From: a virus
Taxonomy: Duplodnaviria > Heunggongvirae > Uroviricota > Caudoviricetes
IMG/VR virus record: IMGVR_UViG_2671180896_000003
Span: 1-42,003 of that record
Direction: 5' to 3' (one strand)
Length of the DNA stretch: 42,003 bases
Under the pieces are notes generated by a model. It was not told the DNA's origin. It made no database searches and was given only the letters and a program-made list of their open reading frames with translations. Shown here one piece after another: positions 28,780 to 39,169 of the stretch (positions are counted from its first letter, which is position 1; each line of letters begins with the position of its first letter). Made by a program: the position numbers and the translations under genes.

Positions 28780-29343
28780 TTGAAGCGAGTAGAGCGCGAT
28801 TTTATCTGTCTGTTTAATTGTGTGTGGTATCAAGATTTCCCTGTGTTCAAAGGTGAATATATCAACCGTTCCAACTGGACCATTCATGTTGGCCTGGTCA
28901 TGCGCGAGTGTGCAAAGTTAATGGGCGCAAGAACATTTTTTGAACAAGGCGGGCGTACCGATGCGGTCCTACAATATCCAGACAATCAAATTTTAACCTA
29001 TGTTGAGTGGGAGTATAATCAGGCAGACAGAGATAGCGTTAACGAGTTAGACAAACTGCTTGAAAAAAACGACAAGTGCTATTTCTCCACATTCATCTCA
29101 TATTGTCAGCATGAAAACATCAATATTGTTATTGAAAAAGCAAGTAGAATATGGAGTGAAGCAAGCAGGCCTTTGATTTTTTTTCTTATCACCTATGAGC
29201 CTCAAACGAAAAAACGCCGCCATTTTTTAGAACTCAGAACTTATTTTTTCTCAAACGGCAAAAGAAAACTAGTTCGCAAACAACCTGCGCTTCCATGGGA
29301 TATTGAGCAACGAAAATACAATGTCGAAGAAGATGCAGGATAG
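28780..29343 (+). CDS. Hypothetical protein, 187 aa, AT-rich accessory cargo (defence-like candidate)
   Basis: TTG start with GGGGGGAGG RBS; AT-rich codon usage unlike flanking phage genes; about 350 bp non-coding upstream; no family recognised. Contains YPD...YVEWEY segment that might be a degenerate nuclease motif (speculative). Confidence 0.6.
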   Translation: MKRVERDFICLFNCVWYQDFPVFKGEYINRSNWTIHVGLVMRECAKLMGARTFFEQGGRTDAVLQYPDNQILTYVEWEYNQADRDSVNELDKLLEKNDKCYFSTFISYCQHENINIVIEKASRIWSEASRPLIFFLITYEPQTKKRRHFLELRTYFFSNGKRKLVRKQPALPWDIEQRKYNVEEDAG

Positions 29344-30010: not shown

Positions 30011-30043
30011 CAAGAAAAATCCTAAATAAATGGAATATTGTTT

Positions 30044-30424
30044 ATGGCTAAGAAAATCGCATTACTGGGCTTTTCTGCTCTTTTTGTTGCAAGTGTTGCT
30101 TTTGCTGAAACGACAAGTAACTGGGTTGAGGTTACTACAGCTGATGATGGCATTTTTTCAGCAAAAAAAGGCACATTTAGAAATGTAAAAGGTGATTCAT
30201 CTGCCTTGTTCATGTATCAAACAAAAAATAAAAAAGTAGAGTACTACAAAGTTAGTATTAAAGATGCCGACTGTGATAGTGGATATGGGGAGATAAGATT
30301 CTTCTATATGGATGGGAAATTAGCTTTCAAAGGTGATTATGTTGCTGATGGGAACAGTGTTGGCGCAGGTATTGGTGATTTTATGTGTGGGGTCAGAATT
30401 GGACTTAACACACAAAAAAGTTAA
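30044..30424 (+). CDS. Secreted/periplasmic protein (lysogenic-conversion candidate)
   Basis: From MAKKIALLGFSALFVASVAFA|ETT: signal peptide with AFA cleavage motif; mature about 105 aa with two Cys; own promoter. Confidence 0.7.
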   Translation: MAKKIALLGFSALFVASVAFAETTSNWVEVTTADDGIFSAKKGTFRNVKGDSSALFMYQTKNKKVEYYKVSIKDADCDSGYGEIRFFYMDGKLAFKGDYVADGNSVGAGIGDFMCGVRIGLNTQKS

Positions 30425-32136: not shown

Positions 32137-33048
32137 TTACCCCCTGAATCCGGGTGGGATTGTTTTGTCTGGCTCAGAAATGCGGTTCACATCCCTGCCC
32201 GTTTTGCGAGCGTTGAGAGCGAACTTCGGTTTAAACAGTCCCTGGTACCCGTTGGCGATACTGGTGTTGATCACATCAACGGGGTCATGCCCAGCGTCCA
32301 GGCAAGCCTTGAGCAACTTGAATGCTTTGGTGACCGTCATTTCGGTCTTGATGGCTTTGCCAGACTGTTGGCGGTAGGCCACCCACTCACTCCAGGACAC
32401 AGAATCAAGCCACTCAGGAACGGGAATCGTCAGCGGGTCAAACTTACCCTTCCCCTTTGGGGGATTAGAGGGGGTTAGATCTGTATTTATATTTGTATTT
32501 GGAAGAATGTCTTTGGTGTTCCCTGTTTTCAGGGATACCTCTCCCTGTTTTTGGGGATGGTTATCCCCGTTTTCAGGGATGATTGAAGGGGTAAAATTGC
32601 TATCCCTGAATTCAGGGATGGTAATAACCCATGTGACAACTTCAGCAGCAGGAAACACCGCTGGACACTTCATGCAATTTGGCTTGGTATACGCCCATTT
32701 ATCCAGGCTGGTATTAATCCCTATGTATCTGGTTTGCCCAATGCGGCGCAGGATGATGATGTTCCGATAGGCAAGGCTCAACACGGCTTCAGAGACGTGT
32801 TTCACCTTCAGCGTCGTTTTATCTGCAATGAGGCTATTGGCGATGCGGTCAGAACTCTTAGACCAGCCATAGGTCAGACGAACGATAGCATTCAGCACCC
32901 GGAACTCGCGCCCGGATAGTTCGACGATACACAGGGCATCCTGAATCTGGTTGGCCAGGCGCAAATAGCCTTTCTCCAGTTCAGCCATGCTGCTCTCCTG
33001 TTTCCCCTGCTGTGTGGGGAATTTGAATATTTCAGCGGTATTTGACAT
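32137..33048 (-). CDS. Replication initiation protein, lambda O-like N-terminal domain
   Basis: From MSNTAEIFKFP...: GYLRLANQIQDAL...REFRVLNAIVRLTYGW...DRIANSLIA parallels recalled lambda O N-terminus; ori iterons lie inside the gene; C-terminal domain unlike lambda O. Confidence 0.8.
   Translation of the reverse strand: MSNTAEIFKFPTQQGKQESSMAELEKGYLRLANQIQDALCIVELSGREFRVLNAIVRLTYGWSKSSDRIANSLIADKTTLKVKHVSEAVLSLAYRNIIILRRIGQTRYIGINTSLDKWAYTKPNCMKCPAVFPAAEVVTWVITIPEFRDSNFTPSIIPENGDNHPQKQGEVSLKTGNTKDILPNTNINTDLTPSNPPKGKGKFDPLTIPVPEWLDSVSWSEWVAYRQQSGKAIKTEMTVTKAFKLLKACLDAGHDPVDVINTSIANGYQGLFKPKFALNARKTGRDVNRISEPDKTIPPGFRG
32520..32618. repeat. Replication origin iterons (four about 16-bp dyad repeats) inside the O-like gene
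   Basis: TCCCTGTTTTCAGGGA (32520), TCCCTGTTTTTGGGGA (32542), TCCCCGTTTTCAGGGA (32564), TCCCTGAATTCAGGGA (32603); 22-bp spacing for the first three; AT-rich stretch at 32480-32510 on the O-downstream side, as in lambda ori. Confidence 0.75.
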
Positions 33049-33132
33049 ACTGTTCTCCGCAATTACGCACAGTTTTTGCACCTGAAAGCCGTTGGTGTTC
33101 GAGCACCGCGGCTTTCGCCATTTCTGAGCCCG

Positions 33133-33690
33133 TCATAGCGCACCACCCAGCATCGTTGTAACCATCGCCATAATGGGCGCCACAGAATCAGGTCCGTCCA
33201 GGTAGAGCTTGGCTACGATGCTCTCGCTGATTTCCTTCATCCGTTCGTGTCTGGGGGCTTTGAGGACGACAGCCTGTATCGCCTCAGCGTCTTCTTTCAC
33301 CGACCTGGCGACACGAACCGCAAAGCAGTCGTGCTTAATCACGCGATCCCGGTACGCCAGCGGCAGAACCGAAATTATTACCGGCGCCAGCTGCTCGACG
33401 TTCGCCCGGTAGGCCGGTGATTTCTCGTGGTTGTCCAGCCAGCGAAACAGCTTCACGTTCCACACATCGGCGCTGCCGGTCATGTCAATGCTGTCAAGCT
33501 CGGCCTGTTCGGCAGCCTCTTTAATCGCCAGAGCGACCGCCACGCGGCCCTCTGCCGCCGCCCAGGCGCGGACGGCAGAACAGATAGCCCGGTGATCGAC
33601 CGGCTGGCCTTCAGCCTCACTGTGTTGATACTGGAATTTCAGGTGCTCTGATGGCGCTCTGTTATTCTGTTGAAAAGAAAGTGTTTGCAT
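33133..33690 (-). CDS. Hypothetical early protein in cII/YdaT position
   Basis: 185 aa immediately downstream of cro-like gene; weak resemblance to YdaT-like proteins from memory. Confidence 0.4.
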   Translation of the reverse strand: MQTLSFQQNNRAPSEHLKFQYQHSEAEGQPVDHRAICSAVRAWAAAEGRVAVALAIKEAAEQAELDSIDMTGSADVWNVKLFRWLDNHEKSPAYRANVEQLAPVIISVLPLAYRDRVIKHDCFAVRVARSVKEDAEAIQAVVLKAPRHERMKEISESIVAKLYLDGPDSVAPIMAMVTTMLGGAL

Positions 33691-33701
33691 TGTCAGTGCT
33701 C

Positions 33702-33920
33702 CTACTTTGGTAATCCGTCAGTGGGATTTGGATAGAGATCAGGGCGCAGCTCGTGGGGGGTTACGCCTGTCATTTTGAAAATCGGGAAGATATAGCTTGG
33801 CGGGACGATCCCTTGGTCACGATTCTTCCAATGACTTACAGACATACTCGTCACACCAAGCGCGATGCTGAGCTTTCTGGCAGAGCCAGCGGCTTTAATT
33901 GCTTTATCGAGTGCGGACAT
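33702..33920 (-). CDS. Cro-like HTH regulator (YdaS/Cro family)
   Basis: 72 aa; HTH segment ARKLSIALGVTSMSVSHWKNR; divergent from repressor gene; RBS AGGAG 7 nt upstream of ATG. Confidence 0.65.
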   Translation of the reverse strand: MSALDKAIKAAGSARKLSIALGVTSMSVSHWKNRDQGIVPPSYIFPIFKMTGVTPHELRPDLYPNPTDGLPK

Positions 33921-34022
33921 GTGCTTCTCCTGCTTATTGATAGCAGAAGTAAACCACAGATTTATACTTCATGCAAACTTTGGATTTATTGCGTGCATAA
34001 ACCAAATATTTACAATGACCAT
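33921..34022. promoter_or_regulatory. Immunity-region divergent promoter/operator interval
   Basis: Two related about 18-bp sites TAAACCACAGATTTATAC (33950) and TAAACCAAATATTTACAA (33998) with partial dyad symmetry; PRM-like -35 TTGCGT / -10 TACAAT ending 6 nt before the cI-like ATG (possible leaderless mRNA). Confidence 0.5.
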
Positions 34023-34412
34023 ATGAGAAAAGAAGAACCCAACCTCGTTCTGGTGGAGCGCCTTACTGAGATCACTGATCGCGGCGTTACCAAAGCAGAC
34101 ATGGCAAGAATAGCTGGAGTCACCCCTCAGGCCGTAAACGGCTGGTTCAAAAAAGGCGTGATTAGTAAGAAATCGGCACTGGCCATAGCCGACGCTGTTG
34201 GTATTTCTGTCGCCTGGCTACTCGGTGAAGACGTTGGGGAGAAAGACGGTCTCAAACCGGACGAACAGCGTTTGCTCGAGCTCTACCGCCAGTTACCGGA
34301 AGAAGAGCAGCAGAACATGCTCCGCATTTTTGCGCTTCGCCTGAAAGAGTTAGATGAGCTGTACGAGAAGTACATGAAGGGTCGGATTCGATCGCAAGGT
34401 GAGCAAACCTAA
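34023..34412 (+). CDS. cI-like repressor, short form (XRE-family HTH, no LexA-type peptidase domain)
   Basis: 129 aa from MRKEEPNLVLVERLTEITDRGVTKADMARIAGVTPQAVNGWFKKG...; divergent from cro-like gene. ORF track upstream extension to 33753 crosses the operator region and is unlikely. Confidence 0.7.
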   Translation: MRKEEPNLVLVERLTEITDRGVTKADMARIAGVTPQAVNGWFKKGVISKKSALAIADAVGISVAWLLGEDVGEKDGLKPDEQRLLELYRQLPEEEQQNMLRIFALRLKELDELYEKYMKGRIRSQGEQT

Positions 34413-34476
34413 ACCAGTAGTATCTAATTCCATGTAATAAAAATATTTCAAGATTTAATATCTTCTGGAGGATTCG

Positions 34477-34758
34477 GTGTCTAAAGAAACAACCGTCGAA
34501 CTTATGCATCTTAATGATGTAATCGAAGCGAAAAATTTCATCGAGACCAATGCTGACGGTGTCGTAACAATCGGCACACAAAATGCCGGTTACGAAGTTT
34601 ACAATTTTGTGTTCCTGAATAGCAGCCCGATCATCGGTACGGATAATGCGGATATAGTCGTCAAGGGCATGCAGCGAACCAAAGTTGTGTCTGTGACTTT
34701 AAGCAAACAAAAGGCTTATGATTTTTATCAATCCTTAAAAAGTATGTTTGAGGAATAA
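34477..34758 (+). CDS. Hypothetical protein, gene 1 of repressor-linked cassette
   Basis: 93 aa; GTG start with GGAGG 5 nt upstream; same strand as and 64 bp downstream of the repressor gene; no family recognised. Confidence 0.6.
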   Translation: MSKETTVELMHLNDVIEAKNFIETNADGVVTIGTQNAGYEVYNFVFLNSSPIIGTDNADIVVKGMQRTKVVSVTLSKQKAYDFYQSLKSMFEE

Positions 34759-34764
34759 TAATTG

Positions 34765-35286
34765 ATGGATGCGGCTCAATCATCTCTTGGTGAAGGGAAG
34801 TTATTGATTGCATATTCAGACCATAGCGGAGCTACAGTAGGCTTAGAGTTTTCATCAGTAGCTTCGAGCCAAGCAACCTTCCTTATGGGTGCTTGTAGTT
34901 TTGCCGCTTCGGATAAACAAAAACGGATTGTCACATCAGTTGCTATGGATGATACTGAAATCATTCATACGTCAACTGAAGATGGAGGTGACGACATGGA
35001 AAAGAGATTGGCTATTCTTGAGGTTGAAGTTGCCCACATCAAGAAAGATGTTGCCGAGATAAAAAACACAGTTTCAAAAGTTGATACGACAGTGAATTCA
35101 CTGGACAAAAATATGGCTGTAGTTTTGGAGAGGCTGTCTAGTATCAAAGAGTCTGTAGACAAAAAGCCCTCATCAGACACAGTGGACAAGAAAATCTCTG
35201 ATGCTAAATTGGCGATTCTCTTAGGTGTCCCTGCGATTATCGCCATTGGTACAGGGCTGTACAAAGCTTTTATGCACTTCTTTTAG
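34765..35286 (+). CDS. Hypothetical membrane-anchored coiled-coil protein, gene 2 of repressor-linked cassette
   Basis: 173 aa from ATG 34765 (RBS GAGGAA); N-terminal about 75-aa domain, central coiled coil (LAILEVEVAHIKKDVAEIKNTVSKVD...), C-terminal transmembrane segment LAILLGVPAIIAIGTGLYKAFMHFF. Confidence 0.6.
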   Translation: MDAAQSSLGEGKLLIAYSDHSGATVGLEFSSVASSQATFLMGACSFAASDKQKRIVTSVAMDDTEIIHTSTEDGGDDMEKRLAILEVEVAHIKKDVAEIKNTVSKVDTTVNSLDKNMAVVLERLSSIKESVDKKPSSDTVDKKISDAKLAILLGVPAIIAIGTGLYKAFMHFF

Positions 35287-35358
35287 TCAGATTTGGTCAA
35301 TACGCCTGAGTTATAAGGCTCTCAGCTACTAACTCTGTCGCCTTCCCCGAACCTTCTC

Positions 35359-35387
35359 ATCCCGACCACGCGTCGGGATTTTTTTTG
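35359..35387 (+). terminator. Strong intrinsic terminator ending the repressor/cassette operon
   Basis: ATCCCGAC-CACGC-GTCGGGAT hairpin followed by TTTTTTTT. Confidence 0.8.
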
Positions 35388-35460
35388 CCTGCGATTCTGC
35401 AGACGTGTCACAAAACCCAGCCACATAAACCTCAGATTTACAATTAACACCAACCTTAAG

Positions 35461-35489
35461 TTGACATATATATAAACCAGTGATTTAAT
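35461..35489 (+). promoter_or_regulatory. Strong sigma70-type promoter (PL-like, early-left operon)
   Basis: TTGACA (35461-35466), 17-bp spacer, TTTAAT (35484-35489); directs transcription toward recE/recT/xis. Confidence 0.6.
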
Positions 35490-35741
35490 CTAACTCACCA
35501 AGACGCACCACGAACCACCCAGGCATGGAGCCCACGAAGTAGCCGTCCGGGGCATACGAAAACCGGAATGAGGTGGTGATATTAACGCGCAGTAGGTTTG
35601 AAACGTTCCGCCAGCCTGGCGACAAGGGCAAACACAGAAGTGAGCTTCGCGGTGGTGAATTGCAGAGTTAAAACGCTCAACTGTGAAGATCAGCGTCACG
35701 GCACCACCAGCGAAGTTCACTCAGCAATAGTGGAGAACATC

Positions 35742-35948
35742 ATGGTTCATCAGCACTACGGTACACAGACAGTAAACCGCGGCGCAGTTCAGCCGGGGAT
35801 GCTTGTAAAACACAAAGACTCAACCTGGACCGCATCTGCTAACGCACGCGGTCGCCTGTATCTTCACCGTGGCATCGAACGTACCTACACCAAAGATTTG
35901 CTGGTTGAGGTTTATCTAAACGGTTTAGGACATGGCCTTAGCCATTAA
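35742..35948 (+). CDS. Hypothetical small early protein (68 aa)
   Basis: ATG 35742 with GGAG 6 nt upstream; first ORF after the PL-like promoter. The ORF track TTG start at 35598 has a poor RBS. Confidence 0.4.
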   Translation: MVHQHYGTQTVNRGAVQPGMLVKHKDSTWTASANARGRLYLHRGIERTYTKDLLVEVYLNGLGHGLSH

Positions 35949-35959
35949 CGGAGTGAGTT

Positions 35960-36121
35960 ATGCAGGAGAAAAAATGCGCGTACTGCCGCAAGCCGATCAA
36001 GCAAGGGAAGGAAGTTAAAAACGAACTGCTCTTTATCCACGGCACGCAGTTGAAACGCGAGCAACGTGATTACTGTTCAGTACGTTGCGCTTCGTTCGAC
36101 CAGATGGCCCACGAAGCATAA
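35960..36121 (+). CDS. Small zinc-finger-like protein (53 aa), not in ORF track
   Basis: MQEKKCAYCRKPIKQGKEV...YCSVRCASFDQMAHEA; CxxC...CxxxC; RBS GGAG 8 nt upstream of ATG. Confidence 0.4.
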   Translation: MQEKKCAYCRKPIKQGKEVKNELLFIHGTQLKREQRDYCSVRCASFDQMAHEA

Positions 36122-36256
36122 CGAAAACCCCGCGCAAGGCGAGATTCACGTCCGGTGCCACCGACCAAAGTTACACCGGAATTTATACCAAACCAAAAAA
36201 CATCCAATGGGCGCTATCTCTGGCCCGGGGATTCTAACACTCAAAAAAGAGGATCT

Positions 36257-39169
36257 CACATGGAATTTTTCCATCTGATAAAAGCCAGTCAGAAGTCTGG
36301 CAAGAAAGATGCAGTGATTTGGTTCACTGCGAAAAGTGTAGCGCGCGCCAATCTCCAACTCGATGTGGCACTGGAAGAAGCCGGAATTGAAGAAACTGGC
36401 CGCGGTAAAGATTATGCCAAACCAATCCGCACCGATTTCCCGGTATATGACGACCTGCCGGAAGAAGGCGCAGTGGATTACACCTGGTGCAAACGCTACG
36501 AACTGCAGAACGATGACCGCACCTGGATGCCAAAAGTCACAGCTGAAAACTCTGACGAGAAAACGGCTCAGACCGTTGATAGTCACATAACTACTGAGTC
36601 AACGCTGCCAGAAACCGCTGGCATCACGCTGGACGAACACGACGACGACTCAACCCTCTACCCGGTAGTGCAGATGCCGTTTCGTAAGCAACTGCTTTCC
36701 CAGTTCACCGCCGACGAACTGCGCCACCACGTAACCCGCGAAGAGTACGAAGCTATCGGCGCGCTGGAGATGGACACTGATAACAGTTACGTCCAGAACT
36801 TGCTGTTAGCTGCTGAGAACTGCCCGGACGTGAAGGGTTACGACACCAAAGACCTGTGGCGCTACACCGATGCCATTCGCAAAGTGTTCAGCCAGGACAA
36901 GCGTCACGAACTCGCGCTGGTACTCCGTTTCACCAGAATGTGGGCGGCGACTGATTACATTGACCGTGGCATCCTGGCGCGTGAATGGGCTGCCGGTAAT
37001 CACATCAGTAGTGTTCAGCGTACTGATTCCGGAACCAATGCCAACGGCGGTTACGTCACTGACCGTGGACCTGATGCATACCATACCCTTGACACTCTCG
37101 ATTTAGAGATTGCATGTGCCCTTCTGCCTATGGACTTCAACCACTTCGAGATCCCGGGCAGCATTCTTCGTCGCGCTAAAGAAATCGTGACCAAAAAAGA
37201 AGAACCGTGGAAATCATGGAGCAGCATTCTGCGCAATCAACCCGGCGTTCTTGGCGTTAACCGCACAGCTATTTTTAACCTGATACGTATCGCGCCGGAA
37301 AATATTCATCTAACTCCTGTCGCTCACCTGGAGTTTGTTAACCGGACCATGACTGCTGCGTTTAATGCTGCTGTTGAGTTATTGCCATTGCATGAAGCTG
37401 AGCCCGCAACACAGGAAATTCCCCAACCTGAAAGTAAGGAGTCTCCACGCAAACCCTTCTGCACTCACGAAGAGAACCTGCAACGCGTACGTGAAGAAGA
37501 AGCACGCCGCCGCGCAGAGGAAGCGACAGCACAACCACATAAAGCCGAACAAGAACTGGTTAAAAATGTCGGCAACGGAATATTCGATGTTACGGCTTTA
37601 CTGCAGAACTCAGCAACTCATGGCACGAAACAGGCTACGGAAACCACCAGCAATGTGCAGGTTCAAGAAACTGTCAGTGATGAAAAAAATGTTGGTAATG
37701 AAATGCAGTCAGGCGAAAGCAGTCTGGAAACTGGTGAAGAGTCACATCCCGGCCAGCAGGCCGATGTAAACCAAAATACGGAATCTGTCGCTCAAAATAG
37801 CGATTCTGTAAACCAGACTGAACCAGTTTTGGCACACGTCGAGCCAGAGGCGCAATCTGACGAACAAGCTGTTTTTTACCCCGATTACTTCGAGCCTGGG
37901 CGCTATGAAGGTCTGCCGAACGAGGTTTACCACGCTGCCAACGGCATCAGTTCCACCCAGGTAAAAGATGCGCGCGTTTCGCTGATGTACTTCAATGCGC
38001 GCCACGTTGAGAAAACCATCGTCAAAGAGCGCTCCTCAGTGCTGGACATGGGAAACCTGGTACATGCGCTGGCGTTGCAGCCAGAACAGCTCGATGAAGA
38101 ATTTAGCGTTGAACCCGTAATTCCGGAAGGTGCATTTACCACCACGGCAACGATCCGCGCGTTTATTGATGAGTACAACGCCAGCCTGCCAGCGCAACTG
38201 AGCGCAGACGATATCAAAGCTTTGCTGGATGAATACAACGCCACCCTGCCAGCGCTGGTGCCGCTGGGCGCTAGCCTGGATGAAACGGCGCAGAACTATA
38301 TGGCGCTGCCAGCTGAATTCCAACGTATCGATGCAGATCAGAAGAAGACAGCAACAGCAATGAAGGCGTGCATCAAAGAGTACAACGCCACCCTGCCAGC
38401 GCAGATTAAAACCAGCGGCAGCCGCGACGCACTACTCGAACAACTTGCGATTATCAATCCTGACCTGGTCGCGCAGGAAGCTCAGAAGCTGCAACCGCTG
38501 AAAGTCTCTGGCACGAAGGCCGATCTGATTCAGGCCGTGAAGGCAGTCAAACCAGATGCAGTGTTCGCCGACGAGCTGCTCGATGCGTGGCGCAACAACC
38601 CGGAAGGGAAAGTGCTGGTTACCCACCAGCAACTTGCCACCGCGCAGGCAATTCAGTCAGCACTGCTCTCGCACCCGACCGCAGGCATGCTGCTAACCCA
38701 CCCGAGCCGCGCCGTTGAGGTGAGCTACTTTGGCTTTGACGAGGAGACGGGACTGGAAGTTCGTGTGCGCCCTGACCTTGAGATCGACCTAGACGGCGTG
38801 CGTATCGGTGCTGACCTGAAAACCATCAGCATGTGGAATGTTAAGCAGGAAAGCCTGCGCGCCAGGCTACACCGGGAAATTATTGAACGTGATTATCACC
38901 TGAGCGCGGCTATGTACTGCGAAACCGCAGCGCTGGATCAGTTCTTCTGGATTTTCGTCAACAAAGACGAGAACTACCACTGGATCGCCATCATCGAGGC
39001 ATCCGCTGAACTACTGGAGCTGGGTATGCTCGAGTACCGCAAAGCGATGCGCAATATCGCAACCGGATTCGACACAGGTGAATGGCCAGCGCCAATCACT
39101 GCTGACTACACCGACGAACTGAACGACTTCGACCTGCGCCGCCTTGAAGCGCTGCGTACTCAGGCATAA
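36257..39169 (+). CDS. recE: Exodeoxyribonuclease VIII (RecE-like)
   Basis: 970 aa from MEFFHLIKAS (RBS AAGAGGA); segments DFPVYDDLPEEGAVDYTWCKRYEL and YIDRGILAREWAAGNHISSVQRTDSGTNANGGYVTDRG parallel recalled E. coli RecE; C-terminal nuclease domain expected. Confidence 0.85.
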   Translation, partial: HMEFFHLIKASQKSGKKDAVIWFTAKSVARANLQLDVALEEAGIEETGRGKDYAKPIRTDFPVYDDLPEEGAVDYTWCKRYELQNDDRTWMPKVTAENSDEKTAQTVDSHITTESTLPETAGITLDEHDDDSTLYPVVQMPFRKQLLSQFTADELRHHVTREEYEAIGALEMDTDNSYVQNLLLAAENCPDVKGYDTKDLWRYTDAIRKVFSQDKRHELALVLRFTRMWAATDYIDRGILAREWAAGNHISSVQRTDSGTNANGGYVTDRGPDAYHTLDTLDLEIACALLPMDFNHFEIPGSILRRAKEIVTKKEEPWKSWSSILRNQPGVLGVNRTAIFNLIRIAPENIHLTPVAHLEFVNRTMTAAFNAAVELLPLHEAEPATQEIPQPESKESPRKPFCTHEENLQRVREEEARRRAEEATAQPHKAEQELVKNVGNGIFDVTALLQNSATHGTKQATETTSNVQVQETVSDEKNVGNEMQSGESSLETGEESHPGQQADVNQNTESVAQNSDSVNQTEPVLAHVEPEAQSDEQAVFYPDYFEPGRYEGLPNEVYHAANGISSTQVKDARVSLMYFNARHVEKTIVKERSSVLDMGNLVHALALQPEQLDEEFSVEPVIPEGAFTTTATIRAFIDEYNASLPAQLSADDIKALLDEYNATLPALVPLGASLDETAQNYMALPAEFQRIDADQKKTATAMKACIKEYNATLPAQIKTSGSRDALLEQLAIINPDLVAQEAQKLQPLKVSGTKADLIQAVKAVKPDAVFADELLDAWRNNPEGKVLVTHQQLATAQAIQSALLSHPTAGMLLTHPSRAVEVSYFGFDEETGLEVRVRPDLEIDLDGVRIGADLKTISMWNVKQESLRARLHREIIERDYHLSAAMYCETAALDQFFWIFVNKDENYHWIAIIEASAELLELGMLEYRKAMRNIATGFDTGEWPAPITADYTDELNDFDLRRLEALRTQA

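What the first reader, a model, noticed from the sequence alone, without database searches (positions are those of the whole stretch)
34413..35390. Unassigned two-gene cassette co-oriented with the repressor, in the rex position
Directly downstream of the short cI-like repressor and on the same strand sit two tightly linked genes (34477-34758, 93 aa soluble; 34765-35286, 173 aa with coiled coil and C-terminal membrane anchor). They are followed by a strong terminator (35359-35387) and then a PL-like promoter. In lambda this slot holds rexA/rexB, and in other temperate phages it holds lysogen-expressed exclusion or abortive-infection genes. Neither protein matches a family I can recognise, and their sizes and topology differ from RexA/RexB. 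The membrane-anchored coiled-coil partner would suit a membrane-disrupting effector with a small cytoplasmic sensor or regulator. This is my best candidate for an undescribed lysogen-expressed defence or exclusion module.
Basis: partly seen in the sequence, partly recalled or inferred. Interest (0 to 1): 0.8.

Follow-up and report, generated by a model that had tools for sequence, protein, structure and literature searches.

The report
Uncharacterised two-gene cassette replacing rexAB
Next to the repressor gene of an E. coli prophage, where phage lambda keeps its rexAB exclusion genes, sit a small soluble protein and a membrane-anchored coiled-coil protein from a widespread, modular, uncharacterised family; it is a good but untested candidate for a new anti-phage module.

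Summary
Two tightly coupled + strand genes (34477-34758, 93 aa soluble; 34765-35286, 173 aa) lie between a short cI repressor and a terminator. Repressor operators bracket the whole block, as they bracket lambda cI-rexA-rexB. Both genes are under strong purifying selection.

Neither protein matches Pfam, NCBIfam, PADLOC or PDB. Both fall in PHROG families of unknown function.

New findings:
- A homologous cassette takes the place of rexAB in HK544, which has lambda immunity, and in the Stx1 prophage of O157:H7 Sakai. Both Sakai/EDL933 proteins were detected in proteomes of uninduced cultures.
- Gene 2 belongs to a broad family: variable head, Gly-rich linker, perfect 8-heptad coiled coil, KKPS hinge, C-terminal membrane anchor. 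The hinge and anchor are the most conserved parts.
- In about 70 of 78 copies it is the second gene of a pair. There are at least 5 unrelated partner families, and where heads cluster cleanly, head type and partner type always go together. About 63 copies follow a repressor gene.
- The window protein is a mosaic of one head and another anchor.
- Prophages with the same or a near-identical repressor carry PDC-M63, HicAB or an orphan gene in this slot.

Best reading (0.45): a lysogen-expressed exclusion module with a swappable sensor and a conserved membrane output. No functional evidence exists.

The parts
33950..34012 (.). OR-type operators: two exact copies of TAAACC-N4-ATTTA (33950-33964, 33998-34012) between cro (33702-33920, -) and cI
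   Evidence: 4 exact copies in 42 kb; 0/100 shuffles reach the observed count; cro = YdaS/P22_Cro-like
34023..34412 (+). Short cI-type repressor (129 aa from ATG 34023; RefSeq uses GTG 33993, 139 aa). HTH_3 only, no S24 peptidase domain. First gene of the presumed immunity transcript.
34413..34476 (+). AT-rich 64-nt spacer with a GGAGG ribosome-binding site for gene 1. No terminator between cI and gene 1.
34477..34758 (+). Gene 1: 93-aa acidic soluble protein (phrog_12039). Predicted helix, six strands, C-terminal helix. The partner/specificity subunit (inferred).
34765..34929 (+). Gene 2, residues 1-55: variable head domain (beta-hairpin plus helix). It always co-occurs with the gene 1 family.
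34930..34995 (+). Gene 2, residues 56-77: acidic, Gly-rich, disordered linker
34996..35160 (+). Gene 2, residues 78-132: coiled coil of 8 perfect heptads. Holds the family signature M-E-x-R-[LIV]-A-x-L-E-x-[DE]-V-x-H-I-K. The recombination breakpoint lies at about residue 93.
35161..35286 (+). Gene 2, residues 133-173 and stop: KKPS hinge, basic juxtamembrane helix, single C-terminal TM (149-166, LAILLGVPAIIAIGTGLY) and 7-residue tail. The most conserved part of the family.
35359..35387 (+). Intrinsic terminator ending the cI-gene1-gene2 unit (the Timm equivalent)
   Evidence: equivalent terminators annotated in HK544 and VT1-Sakai
35426..35489 (+). OL/PL-like region: operator copies at 35426-35440 and 35473-35487 flank a TTGACA -35 hexamer (35461-35466). 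Transcription runs on into kilR-like, ydaE, recE and recT.

Best explanation
I read this as a lysogen-expressed, two-component phage-exclusion (abortive-infection type) module that fills the rexAB niche.

It is transcribed with cI from the maintenance promoter and ends at the terminator at 35359-35387.

Gene 2 is a tail-anchored inner-membrane protein. Its bulk lies in the cytoplasm. A parallel coiled-coil stalk, probably trimeric, holds a small head domain on a flexible Gly-rich linker. The last 25 residues form a highly conserved membrane helix.

Gene 1 is a soluble protein that binds the head. Together they form the specificity (sensing) part, which is exchanged as a unit between phages.

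The stalk, hinge and membrane helix are the common output part. On recognising a cue from an infecting phage, this part acts at the membrane. The most likely action is clustering or rearranging the membrane helices so that the membrane leaks or depolarises, which stops the infection.

Shown: the anatomy, the position inside the immunity region, purifying selection, the modular exchange, and expression of homologues in lysogens.

Inferred: the partner-head interaction, the oligomeric state, the sensing step, the membrane effect and the defence phenotype.
For: Position
- The cassette lies inside the operator-bracketed immunity block, co-oriented with cI, with no terminator before 35359.
- The homologous pair (74% and 55% aa identity) sits between cI and Timm/pL in HK544 (lambda immunity) and in VT1-Sakai, phages with unrelated repressors.

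Expression
- ECs2991 was among only 394 proteins identified by iTRAQ in uninduced O157 cultures.

Hotspot
- Prophages with the same repressor (95-99% identical DNA over the immunity region) carry HicAB plus YoaK or a 467-aa orphan in this slot. One with a 92%-identical immunity region carries PDC-M63A/B.
- The cassette has moron-like low GC.

Modularity
- Across 78 copies in 76 loci plus the window, the anchored protein is almost always the second gene of a tight pair.
- There are at least 5 unrelated partner families.
- Head type and partner type co-occur 28/28, 12/12 and 2/2.
- Long heads go with small partners, and short heads with 139-187-aa partners.
- The window protein is 82% identical to the HK544 protein over residues 1-93 but 16-21% over 94-132 and 149-173. 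It is 80-88% identical over 133-173 to P0036, whose head and partner are unrelated.
- DNA homology to the Sakai type stops at residue ~93.

Output part
- The hinge and TM are the most conserved regions (0.78/0.74 and 0.86/0.91 majority fraction, against 0.32-0.37 for the head). A passive anchor would not be expected to be this conserved.
- The TM is rich in small residues and has a Pro.
- The heptads carry beta-branched residues at both a and d positions, and the PDB profile hits are largely trimeric coiled coils.
Against: - No functional data of any kind exist for this family.
- There is no similarity to any known or candidate defence protein in PADLOC.
- AlphaFold models are poor (pLDDT 47 and 60), and fold searches gave nothing significant. 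Partner-head binding and oligomeric state are therefore untested.
- A single tail-anchor helix is a minimal device for making a pore. A conserved membrane helix could equally mean binding to a host membrane protein.
- Location next to the repressor is also used by non-defence cargo.
- Some family members lack a partner (Pantoea L017, L018) or sit in tail-gene regions (Serratia L013).
- Two relevant papers could not be read: Degnan et al. 2007 and Brenes & Laub 2025. Prior characterisation cannot be fully excluded.
Confidence: 0.45

Rival explanations
1. Superinfection exclusion of the Sie type. The anchored protein sits in the inner membrane and blocks DNA entry or an entry cofactor of incoming phages without killing the cell. 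The partner and head set which phages are blocked.
For: - Membrane location, lysogen expression and repressor-adjacent position.
- The strongly conserved TM helix would suit binding to a host inner-membrane protein that phages use for DNA entry.
- Several interchangeable TM flavours exist.
- From my own knowledge: lactococcal Sie2009-type proteins and HK97 gp15 are small prophage membrane proteins with this job.
Against: - With no signal peptide and only 7 residues after the TM, almost the whole protein, including the variable head and the partner, is cytoplasmic.
- Known injection blockers expose their working part to the periplasm or the membrane.
- A cytoplasmic variable sensor fits post-entry sensing better.
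Confidence: 0.15
2. Toxin-antitoxin or addiction pair that stabilises the prophage. Gene 2 is a small membrane toxin and gene 1 its antidote, with no dedicated anti-phage role.
For: - A tight two-gene operon of a small soluble and a small membrane protein.
- The same slot holds HicAB in a related prophage.
- Partner and head co-vary as cognate pairs do.
Against: - Partnerless, headless members exist (L017, L018), which is hard to reconcile with an unneutralised toxin.
- The antidote would be encoded upstream and bind a head domain far from the membrane helix.
- Both proteins accumulate in normal cultures.
- Many TA pairs are themselves abortive-infection systems, so this rival overlaps the main reading.
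Confidence: 0.12
3. Host-fitness (lysogenic conversion) factor unrelated to phages. One example would be a stress or stationary-phase membrane protein working like the tail-anchored ElaB/YqjD/YgaM proteins.
For: - Same gross architecture: cytoplasmic helical region plus a C-terminal anchor.
- ECs2991 was detected in 48-h anaerobic and rumen-fluid cultures.
- Carried by the Stx1 prophage of O157:H7.
Against: - No Pfam DUF883 or other family match at E<=1.
- Rapid exchange of heads and partners on a conserved stalk is the pattern of a conflict system, not of a housekeeping helper.
- Alternative cargo in the slot is defence or TA-like.
Confidence: 0.1
4. Phage-intrinsic regulator of induction or lysis timing. 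One example would be a membrane tether that sequesters a regulator, or an XhlA-like holin accessory.
For: - Weak, sub-threshold XhlA (PF10779) hits in 5 of 48 relatives, and PHROG 'hemolysin' hits.
- The repressor here lacks a self-cleavage domain, so some extra induction route must exist.
Against: - The cassette travels with LexA-like self-cleaving repressors as well as short ones, so it is not tied to one induction mechanism.
- It is far from the lysis genes.
- XhlA scores of 20-25 bits lie below the 34.7-bit cut-off and are no better than generic coiled-coil noise.
- Prophages with the same repressor lack the cassette entirely.
Confidence: 0.08

Closest known systems
Lambda RexA/RexB
   Same: Identical genomic niche: co-oriented after cI, inside the OR-OL immunity block, ended by Timm. 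In HK544 the cassette literally takes the place of rexAB next to lambda-type cI. Two genes, one soluble and one membrane protein, expressed in the lysogen.
   Different: No sequence relationship. RexA is 279 aa and RexB is a polytopic 4-TM protein (my knowledge). Here the soluble protein is 93 aa and the membrane protein has a long cytoplasmic coiled coil with one C-terminal anchor. The modular swapping of head and partner is not a known Rex feature.
Mycobacteriophage repressor-adjacent two-gene defences (Sbash gp30/gp31, Butters gp30/gp31), recalled from memory and not tested here
   Same: A prophage-expressed pair of a cytoplasmic protein and a membrane protein, described as Rex-like.
   Different: Unrelated hosts and proteins. 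Their membrane components are polytopic.
XhlA (PF10779) of PBSX/SPbeta-type phages
   Same: A small protein with a coiled coil followed by a C-terminal membrane helix. It acts at the membrane with a holin (my knowledge).
   Different: Only sub-threshold hits in a few relatives and none for the window protein. XhlA is a late lysis-cassette gene, whereas this one is an immunity-region gene. XhlA has no head, linker or partner.
ElaB/YqjD/YgaM tail-anchored proteins of E. coli
   Same: C-tail-anchored inner-membrane proteins with a helical cytoplasmic part.
   Different: No DUF883 match. Those genes are chromosomal, single and non-modular.
PHROG families phrog_12039, phrog_12602 and phrog_3556
   Same: Gene 1 matches phrog_12039 full length (1.6e-47). 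Gene 2 matches phrog_12602 (2.7e-54) and, over residues 63-173, phrog_3556. All 48 diverse relatives match phrog_3556.
   Different: These families carry no functional annotation, so membership names the protein but explains nothing.
PDC-M63 (PADLOC candidate) and HicAB, the alternative occupants of the same slot
   Same: They sit at the same position after the same or a 92%-identical repressor, before the kilR-like/ydaE/recE genes.
   Different: Unrelated proteins. PDC-M63 is itself only a candidate system.

Membership tests
Lambda RexAB | RexA-like and RexB-like protein sequences | tested here: not met
   No Pfam family at E<=1 other than coiled-coil noise, and no PADLOC model.
Lambda RexAB | Polytopic (4-TM) membrane component | tested here: not met
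   A single hydrophobic segment at 149-166 of 173 residues.
Lambda RexAB | Position between cI and Timm/pL, co-oriented with cI | tested here: met
   The homologous pair is in that position in HK544 and VT1-Sakai.
Lambda RexAB | Exclusion of T4 rII and similar phages through membrane depolarisation | not testable with these tools
   Needs plating and membrane-potential assays.
XhlA (PF10779) | Profile match above the gathering score | tested here: not met
   No hit for the window protein. The best relatives score 20.8-25 bits against a 34.7-bit cut-off.
XhlA (PF10779) | Encoded in a lysis cassette beside holin and endolysin | tested here: not met
   Holin, lysozyme and Rz1 genes lie about 10 kb away on the other strand.
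ElaB/YqjD/YgaM (DUF883) | DUF883 profile match | tested here: not met
   Absent from the Pfam output at E<=1.
Known or candidate defence systems in PADLOC-DB 2.0.0 | Match to any system protein model | tested here: not met
   Gene 1 has 0 hits. Gene 2 has only coiled-coil overlaps with LmuB, DruC and JetA at 12-16 bits.
phrog_12039 and phrog_12602/phrog_3556 (unknown function) | Full-length profile match | tested here: met
   E-values of 1.6e-47, 2.7e-54 and 3.2e-28. 48 of 48 relatives hit phrog_3556.
Tail-anchored coiled-coil cassette family (defined here) | Head, Gly-rich linker, M-E-x-R-x-A-x-L-E-x-D-V-x-H-I-K coiled coil, KKPS hinge and C-terminal TM; second gene of a tight pair; usually directly after a repressor gene | tested here: met
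Type II toxin-antitoxin pair | Toxicity of one product, neutralised by the other | not testable with these tools
   No TA family match. Needs expression tests.

The most novel reading that the evidence does not exclude
The cassette represents a previously undescribed, widespread class of prophage immune modules in Enterobacterales. A conserved, tail-anchored trimeric coiled-coil 'stalk and membrane helix' acts as a universal membrane output. Phages plug interchangeable head domains, each with its own small cytoplasmic partner, onto this output by recombination at the first heptads. This would give lambdoid prophages, including the Stx1 phage of O157:H7 and lambda-immunity phages that lack rexAB, a mix-and-match repertoire of phage sensors.
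Probability: 0.35. Interest if true: 0.78.

Novelty: new variant of a known kind. Interest (0 to 1): 0.62.

Why it matters
RexAB was the first phage-exclusion system described, and how it works is still debated. Here, an unrelated and much simpler pair takes the same place in a phage with lambda immunity, HK544.

The pair is common. The window's head/partner type occurs in 106 of 5,426 complete E. coli genomes, and exact copies are on 1000 or more contigs. Carriers include the Stx1 prophage of O157:H7.

If it is an exclusion system, three things follow:
- It would add a new protein architecture to bacterial immunity: a tail-anchored coiled coil with swappable sensor heads.
- It would show that the cI-PL slot is a general defence hotspot of lambdoid phages.
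- Natural chimeras already define the module boundaries, so it would be a small, tractable model for how a cytoplasmic sensing event is passed to the membrane.

If it is not defence, it is still an abundant lysogen-expressed membrane protein of a major pathogen with no known role.

Tried and rejected
- Pfam, NCBIfam and PADLOC scans gave only coiled-coil noise such as SlyX, FlaC, LPP and LmuB.
- PDB sequence search: gene 1 gave nothing, and the gene 2 family gave only generic, largely trimeric coiled coils.
- AlphaFold2 models: gene 1 pLDDT 47.5, gene 2 pLDDT 60.3.
- A profile search for remote relatives of gene 1 added nothing beyond Enterobacterales 93-aa proteins.
- hhalign found no link between gene 1, the 87/88-aa partners, the Zn-ribbon partner or the gene 2 head. 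It did link the 139-187-aa partners into one or two superfamilies.
- Rejected: XhlA and holin homology. Scores are below threshold and the gene context is wrong.
- Rfam found nothing above threshold in 33000-36500.
- Megablast of the cassette against the phage collection found nothing; tblastn was needed.
- Literature searches on locus tags, accessions and architecture found no functional study.
- The DefensePredictor supplements do not list these accessions.
- Degnan et al. 2007 and Brenes & Laub 2025 are not held.
- The first operator pattern used the wrong spacer and failed.
Full report
**1. What is there**

The window is an E. coli lambdoid/Rac-like prophage. It is 100% identical over 33600-35600 to 8 complete E. 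coli chromosomes and at least 99.5% identical to 13. RefSeq annotates the flanks as YdaT-like, YdaS/Cro-like, HTH repressor, two hypothetical proteins, YdaE, RecE, RecT and integrase.

- Gene 1 (34477-34758) starts at GTG, six bases after a GGAGG, and encodes 93 residues.
- Gene 2 (34765-35286) starts six bases after the gene 1 stop and encodes 173 residues.

RefSeq calls gene 1 from an internal ATG, giving 84 aa. Homologues align over all 93 residues, and one of them starts with ATG at the equivalent position, so the long form is right.

Both frames are under strong purifying selection. Against relatives of 81-83% protein identity, synonymous sites are near saturation (pS 0.65-0.82) and non-synonymous differences are 0.10-0.17. 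dN/dS is 0.06-0.10 in the three closest comparisons where dS could be computed, and 0.235 for gene 2 against the more divergent HK544/Sakai type. These are real genes.

Gene 1 has no hydrophobic segment and is acidic. Gene 2 has one hydrophobic stretch at 149-166, seven residues from the C-terminus, preceded by a Lys-rich segment.

**2. Transcription signals**

- No terminator-like structure of any strength lies between cI and gene 1.
- An 8-bp G+C-rich hairpin followed by eight T lies at 35359-35387.
- The motif TAAACC-N4-ATTTA occurs exactly four times in 42 kb. Two copies lie between cro and cI (33950, 33998). Two lie just after the terminator (35426, 35473), flanking a TTGACA (none of 100 shuffles gave as many hits).

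These are best read as OR and OL. The cI-gene1-gene2 block is therefore bracketed just as cI-rexA-rexB is in lambda. The -10 element of the PL-like promoter is weak by consensus and was not flagged, so that promoter is inferred.

The cassette is 39-43% G+C, against roughly 47-61% in the flanking windows. That is the usual signature of a moron.

**3. The same cassette in the rex slot of other phages**

- In HK544 the repressor, OR, OL, pRM, pL and N are lambda's. The two genes sit between cI and the terminator that the depositors labelled Timm, so the pair stands where rexAB stands in lambda.
- In VT1-Sakai the repressor is different again, and the depositors annotated the terminator after the second gene as the one for the pRM transcript.

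The cassette therefore moves independently of immunity type but always into the same slot.

Two proteomic studies of uninduced O157:H7 cultures detected the homologues:
- ECs2991 was among only 394 proteins identified by iTRAQ (PMC3936929).

**4. No known family**

- Pfam, NCBIfam and PADLOC give nothing but low-scoring coiled-coil overlaps.
- PHROGs places gene 1 in phrog_12039, and gene 2 in phrog_12602 and (C-terminal part) phrog_3556. All three have unknown function.
- The PDB holds no relative of gene 1. For the gene 2 family it holds only generic coiled coils, largely trimeric ones such as Lpp, autotransporter stalks and sigma-1.
- AlphaFold2 models are of low confidence. Gene 1 (pLDDT 47.5) is predicted as helix, six strands, helix. 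Gene 2 (pLDDT 60.3) is predicted as a beta-hairpin 11-32, helix 34-48, disorder 56-75, one long helix 77-132, a break at KKPS, and helix 137-172.
- Fold searches returned nothing significant.

**5. The family behind gene 2**

Homology searches show two tiers. One is full-length relatives of 170-183 aa. The other is many proteins of 93-150 aa that share only residues ~75-173. A profile search of 1.8 billion representatives finds 105 clusters at E<=1e-10, and all 48 sampled members hit phrog_3556.

The common plan has five parts:
- A variable or absent N-terminal head.
- A Gly-rich linker.
- A coiled coil that opens with M-E-x-R-[LIV]-A-x-L-E-x-[DE]-V-x-[HY]-I-K.
- A KKPS hinge.
- A C-terminal membrane helix, which comes in at least three or four conserved flavours.

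In the window protein the coiled coil has eight uninterrupted heptads, with 16 of 16 a/d positions hydrophobic and mostly Val/Ile at both. By the Harbury rules (my knowledge) this favours a trimer. A 7-residue indel between subfamilies preserves the register.

Conservation rises toward the membrane. The majority-residue fraction is 0.37 for the head, 0.59 for the coiled coil, 0.78 for the hinge and 0.74 for the TM. In the closer set these values are 0.32, 0.70, 0.86 and 0.91. A mere anchor would not be the most conserved part.

**6. Context of the family**

I collected 76 loci plus the window, holding 78 copies of the anchored gene, and called ORFs uniformly.

- In about 70 of the 78 copies, the anchored protein is the second gene of a pair separated by 0-13 bases or overlapping.
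- In about 63, the gene before the pair is a repressor, either LexA-like (HTH + S24) or short HTH.
- Four Serratia-type loci have the pair after a DUF6246 tail-region gene.
- A few Pantoea loci have headless copies next to an AraC gene with no partner.

The partners fall into at least five unrelated families (hhalign):
- The 93-aa gene 1 family.
- An 87-91-aa family.
- An 88-aa family.
- A 119-aa Zn-ribbon family.
- One or two beta-rich superfamilies of 139-187 aa.

Where heads cluster cleanly, head type and partner type co-occur without exception: 28/28, 12/12 and 2/2. Long heads pair with small partners, and short heads with the large partners.

The gene 1 family itself is narrow, about 20 clusters, all Enterobacterales.

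**7. Mosaic structure**

- Against the HK544/Sakai protein, the window protein is 82%, 77% and 81% identical over residues 1-55, 56-77 and 78-93. It is only 21% and 16% identical over 94-132 and 149-173.
- Against P0036, a 147-aa protein with an unrelated head and partner, it is 88% and 80% identical over 133-148 and 149-173.
- At the DNA level, homology to the Sakai type stops at query base 568, which is residue ~93, in about 93 E. coli genomes.

Head plus partner, and stalk plus anchor, are therefore separate modules that recombine at the conserved first heptads.

**8. The slot is a cargo hotspot**

Prophages with the same repressor (95-99% identical DNA over the immunity region) and the same downstream kilR-like/ydaE/recE genes carry other cargo here:
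- A 467-aa orphan protein.
- An HTH protein, a YoaK-like small membrane protein, HicA/HicB and an orphan.

A third prophage, with a 92%-identical immunity region and the same gene layout, carries a DUF6932 protein with a 310-aa partner. That pair matches the PADLOC candidate system PDC-M63A/B at 9e-40 and 9e-44.

**9. Interpretation**

These points are shown:
- A real, conserved, lysogen-side two-gene unit in the rex position.
- A tail-anchored coiled-coil protein with a soluble partner.
- Expression of homologues without induction.
- Modular exchange of head and partner on a conserved stalk and anchor.
- A slot shared with defence and TA-type cargo.

From this I infer a two-component exclusion module. 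The partner and head form the sensing part. The stalk, hinge and membrane helix form the common output, acting at the inner membrane, most likely by permeabilising it in an abortive-infection manner analogous to RexAB.

I put 0.45 on this reading. The rivals are:

| Rival reading | Confidence |
|---|---|
| Sie-type entry block | 0.15 |
| Plain toxin-antitoxin or addiction pair | 0.12 |
| Host-fitness factor | 0.10 |
| Induction or lysis regulator | 0.08 |

The cytoplasmic location of the variable parts argues against an entry block. Independence from repressor type, and absence from prophages with the same repressor, argue against a regulatory role. Partnerless members argue against a simple toxin-antidote pair.

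**10. Comparison and novelty**

The cassette works in the niche of RexAB but is not a member. Sequence and membrane topology were tested and not met; only position is shared. It is not XhlA, ElaB/YqjD or any PADLOC system by profile.

I found no paper that studies these proteins.

I rate it a new variant of a known kind, namely a repressor-linked, lysogen-expressed two-gene membrane module built from new proteins with a distinctive modular design. Function is unproven, so interest is 0.62.

Noticed in passing
window 34477-34503: RefSeq/PGAP annotates gene 1 as 84 aa from the internal ATG at 34504. Homologues and the GGAGG site support the 93-aa GTG start, so the public annotation is probably truncated.
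   Followed up: yes
window 33950-34012 and 35426-35487: Four exact copies of TAAACC-N4-ATTTA, two on each side of the cI-cassette block. They are the likely OR and OL operators of this short repressor.
   Followed up: partly
window 33993-34412: The repressor is short (129-139 aa), HTH_3 only, with a helical acidic C-terminus and no S24 self-cleavage domain. How this prophage is induced is unclear. A similar short repressor precedes a cassette in Phaseolibacter (L015 2910-3329).
   Followed up: no
window 34765-35286 vs L001 3501-4052 and P0036: Gene 2 is a natural chimera: its head, linker and first heptads are of the HK544/Sakai type, and its hinge and TM of the 147-aa type. The breakpoint is at residue ~93, right after the conserved LExEVAHIK motif.
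   Followed up: yes
L080 4350-5753; L081 4327-6154; L082 4377-5779: Prophages with the same or a 92%-identical repressor carry other cargo in the slot: a 467-aa orphan with no Pfam or PADLOC match, HicAB plus a YoaK-like peptide, or PDC-M63A/B.
   Followed up: partly
L013 3556-4300, L031, L032, L079: In Serratia-type phages the anchored protein pairs with a 119-aa Zn-ribbon protein. The pair sits after a DUF6246 tail-region gene, not after the repressor. L079 carries a frameshifted copy.
   Followed up: partly
L016 3567-4306, L017/L018 3974-4276, L060: Pantoea chromosomes carry headless 99-100-aa versions, one locus with two in tandem, beside an AraC-family gene and without a partner gene.
   Followed up: no
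L019 3800-4347: The Symbiopectobacterium copy is split by a frameshift into 127-aa and 60-aa ORFs. It is a probable pseudogene in a degrading symbiont genome.
   Followed up: no
window 28780-29343 and 30038-30424: Two + strand hypothetical genes lie inside an otherwise - strand block of the prophage (RefSeq WP_170973743.1 and WP_053271636.1). They may be further morons.
   Followed up: no
L001 4053-4090, L002, L025, L026 (alignment A6): In the other phages a conserved hairpin (CCGGCC...GGCCGGG TTTTTT) follows the gene 2 stop directly. It is missing in the window, which instead uses the second hairpin that it shares with L025.
   Followed up: partly
[not shown]
   Followed up: partly
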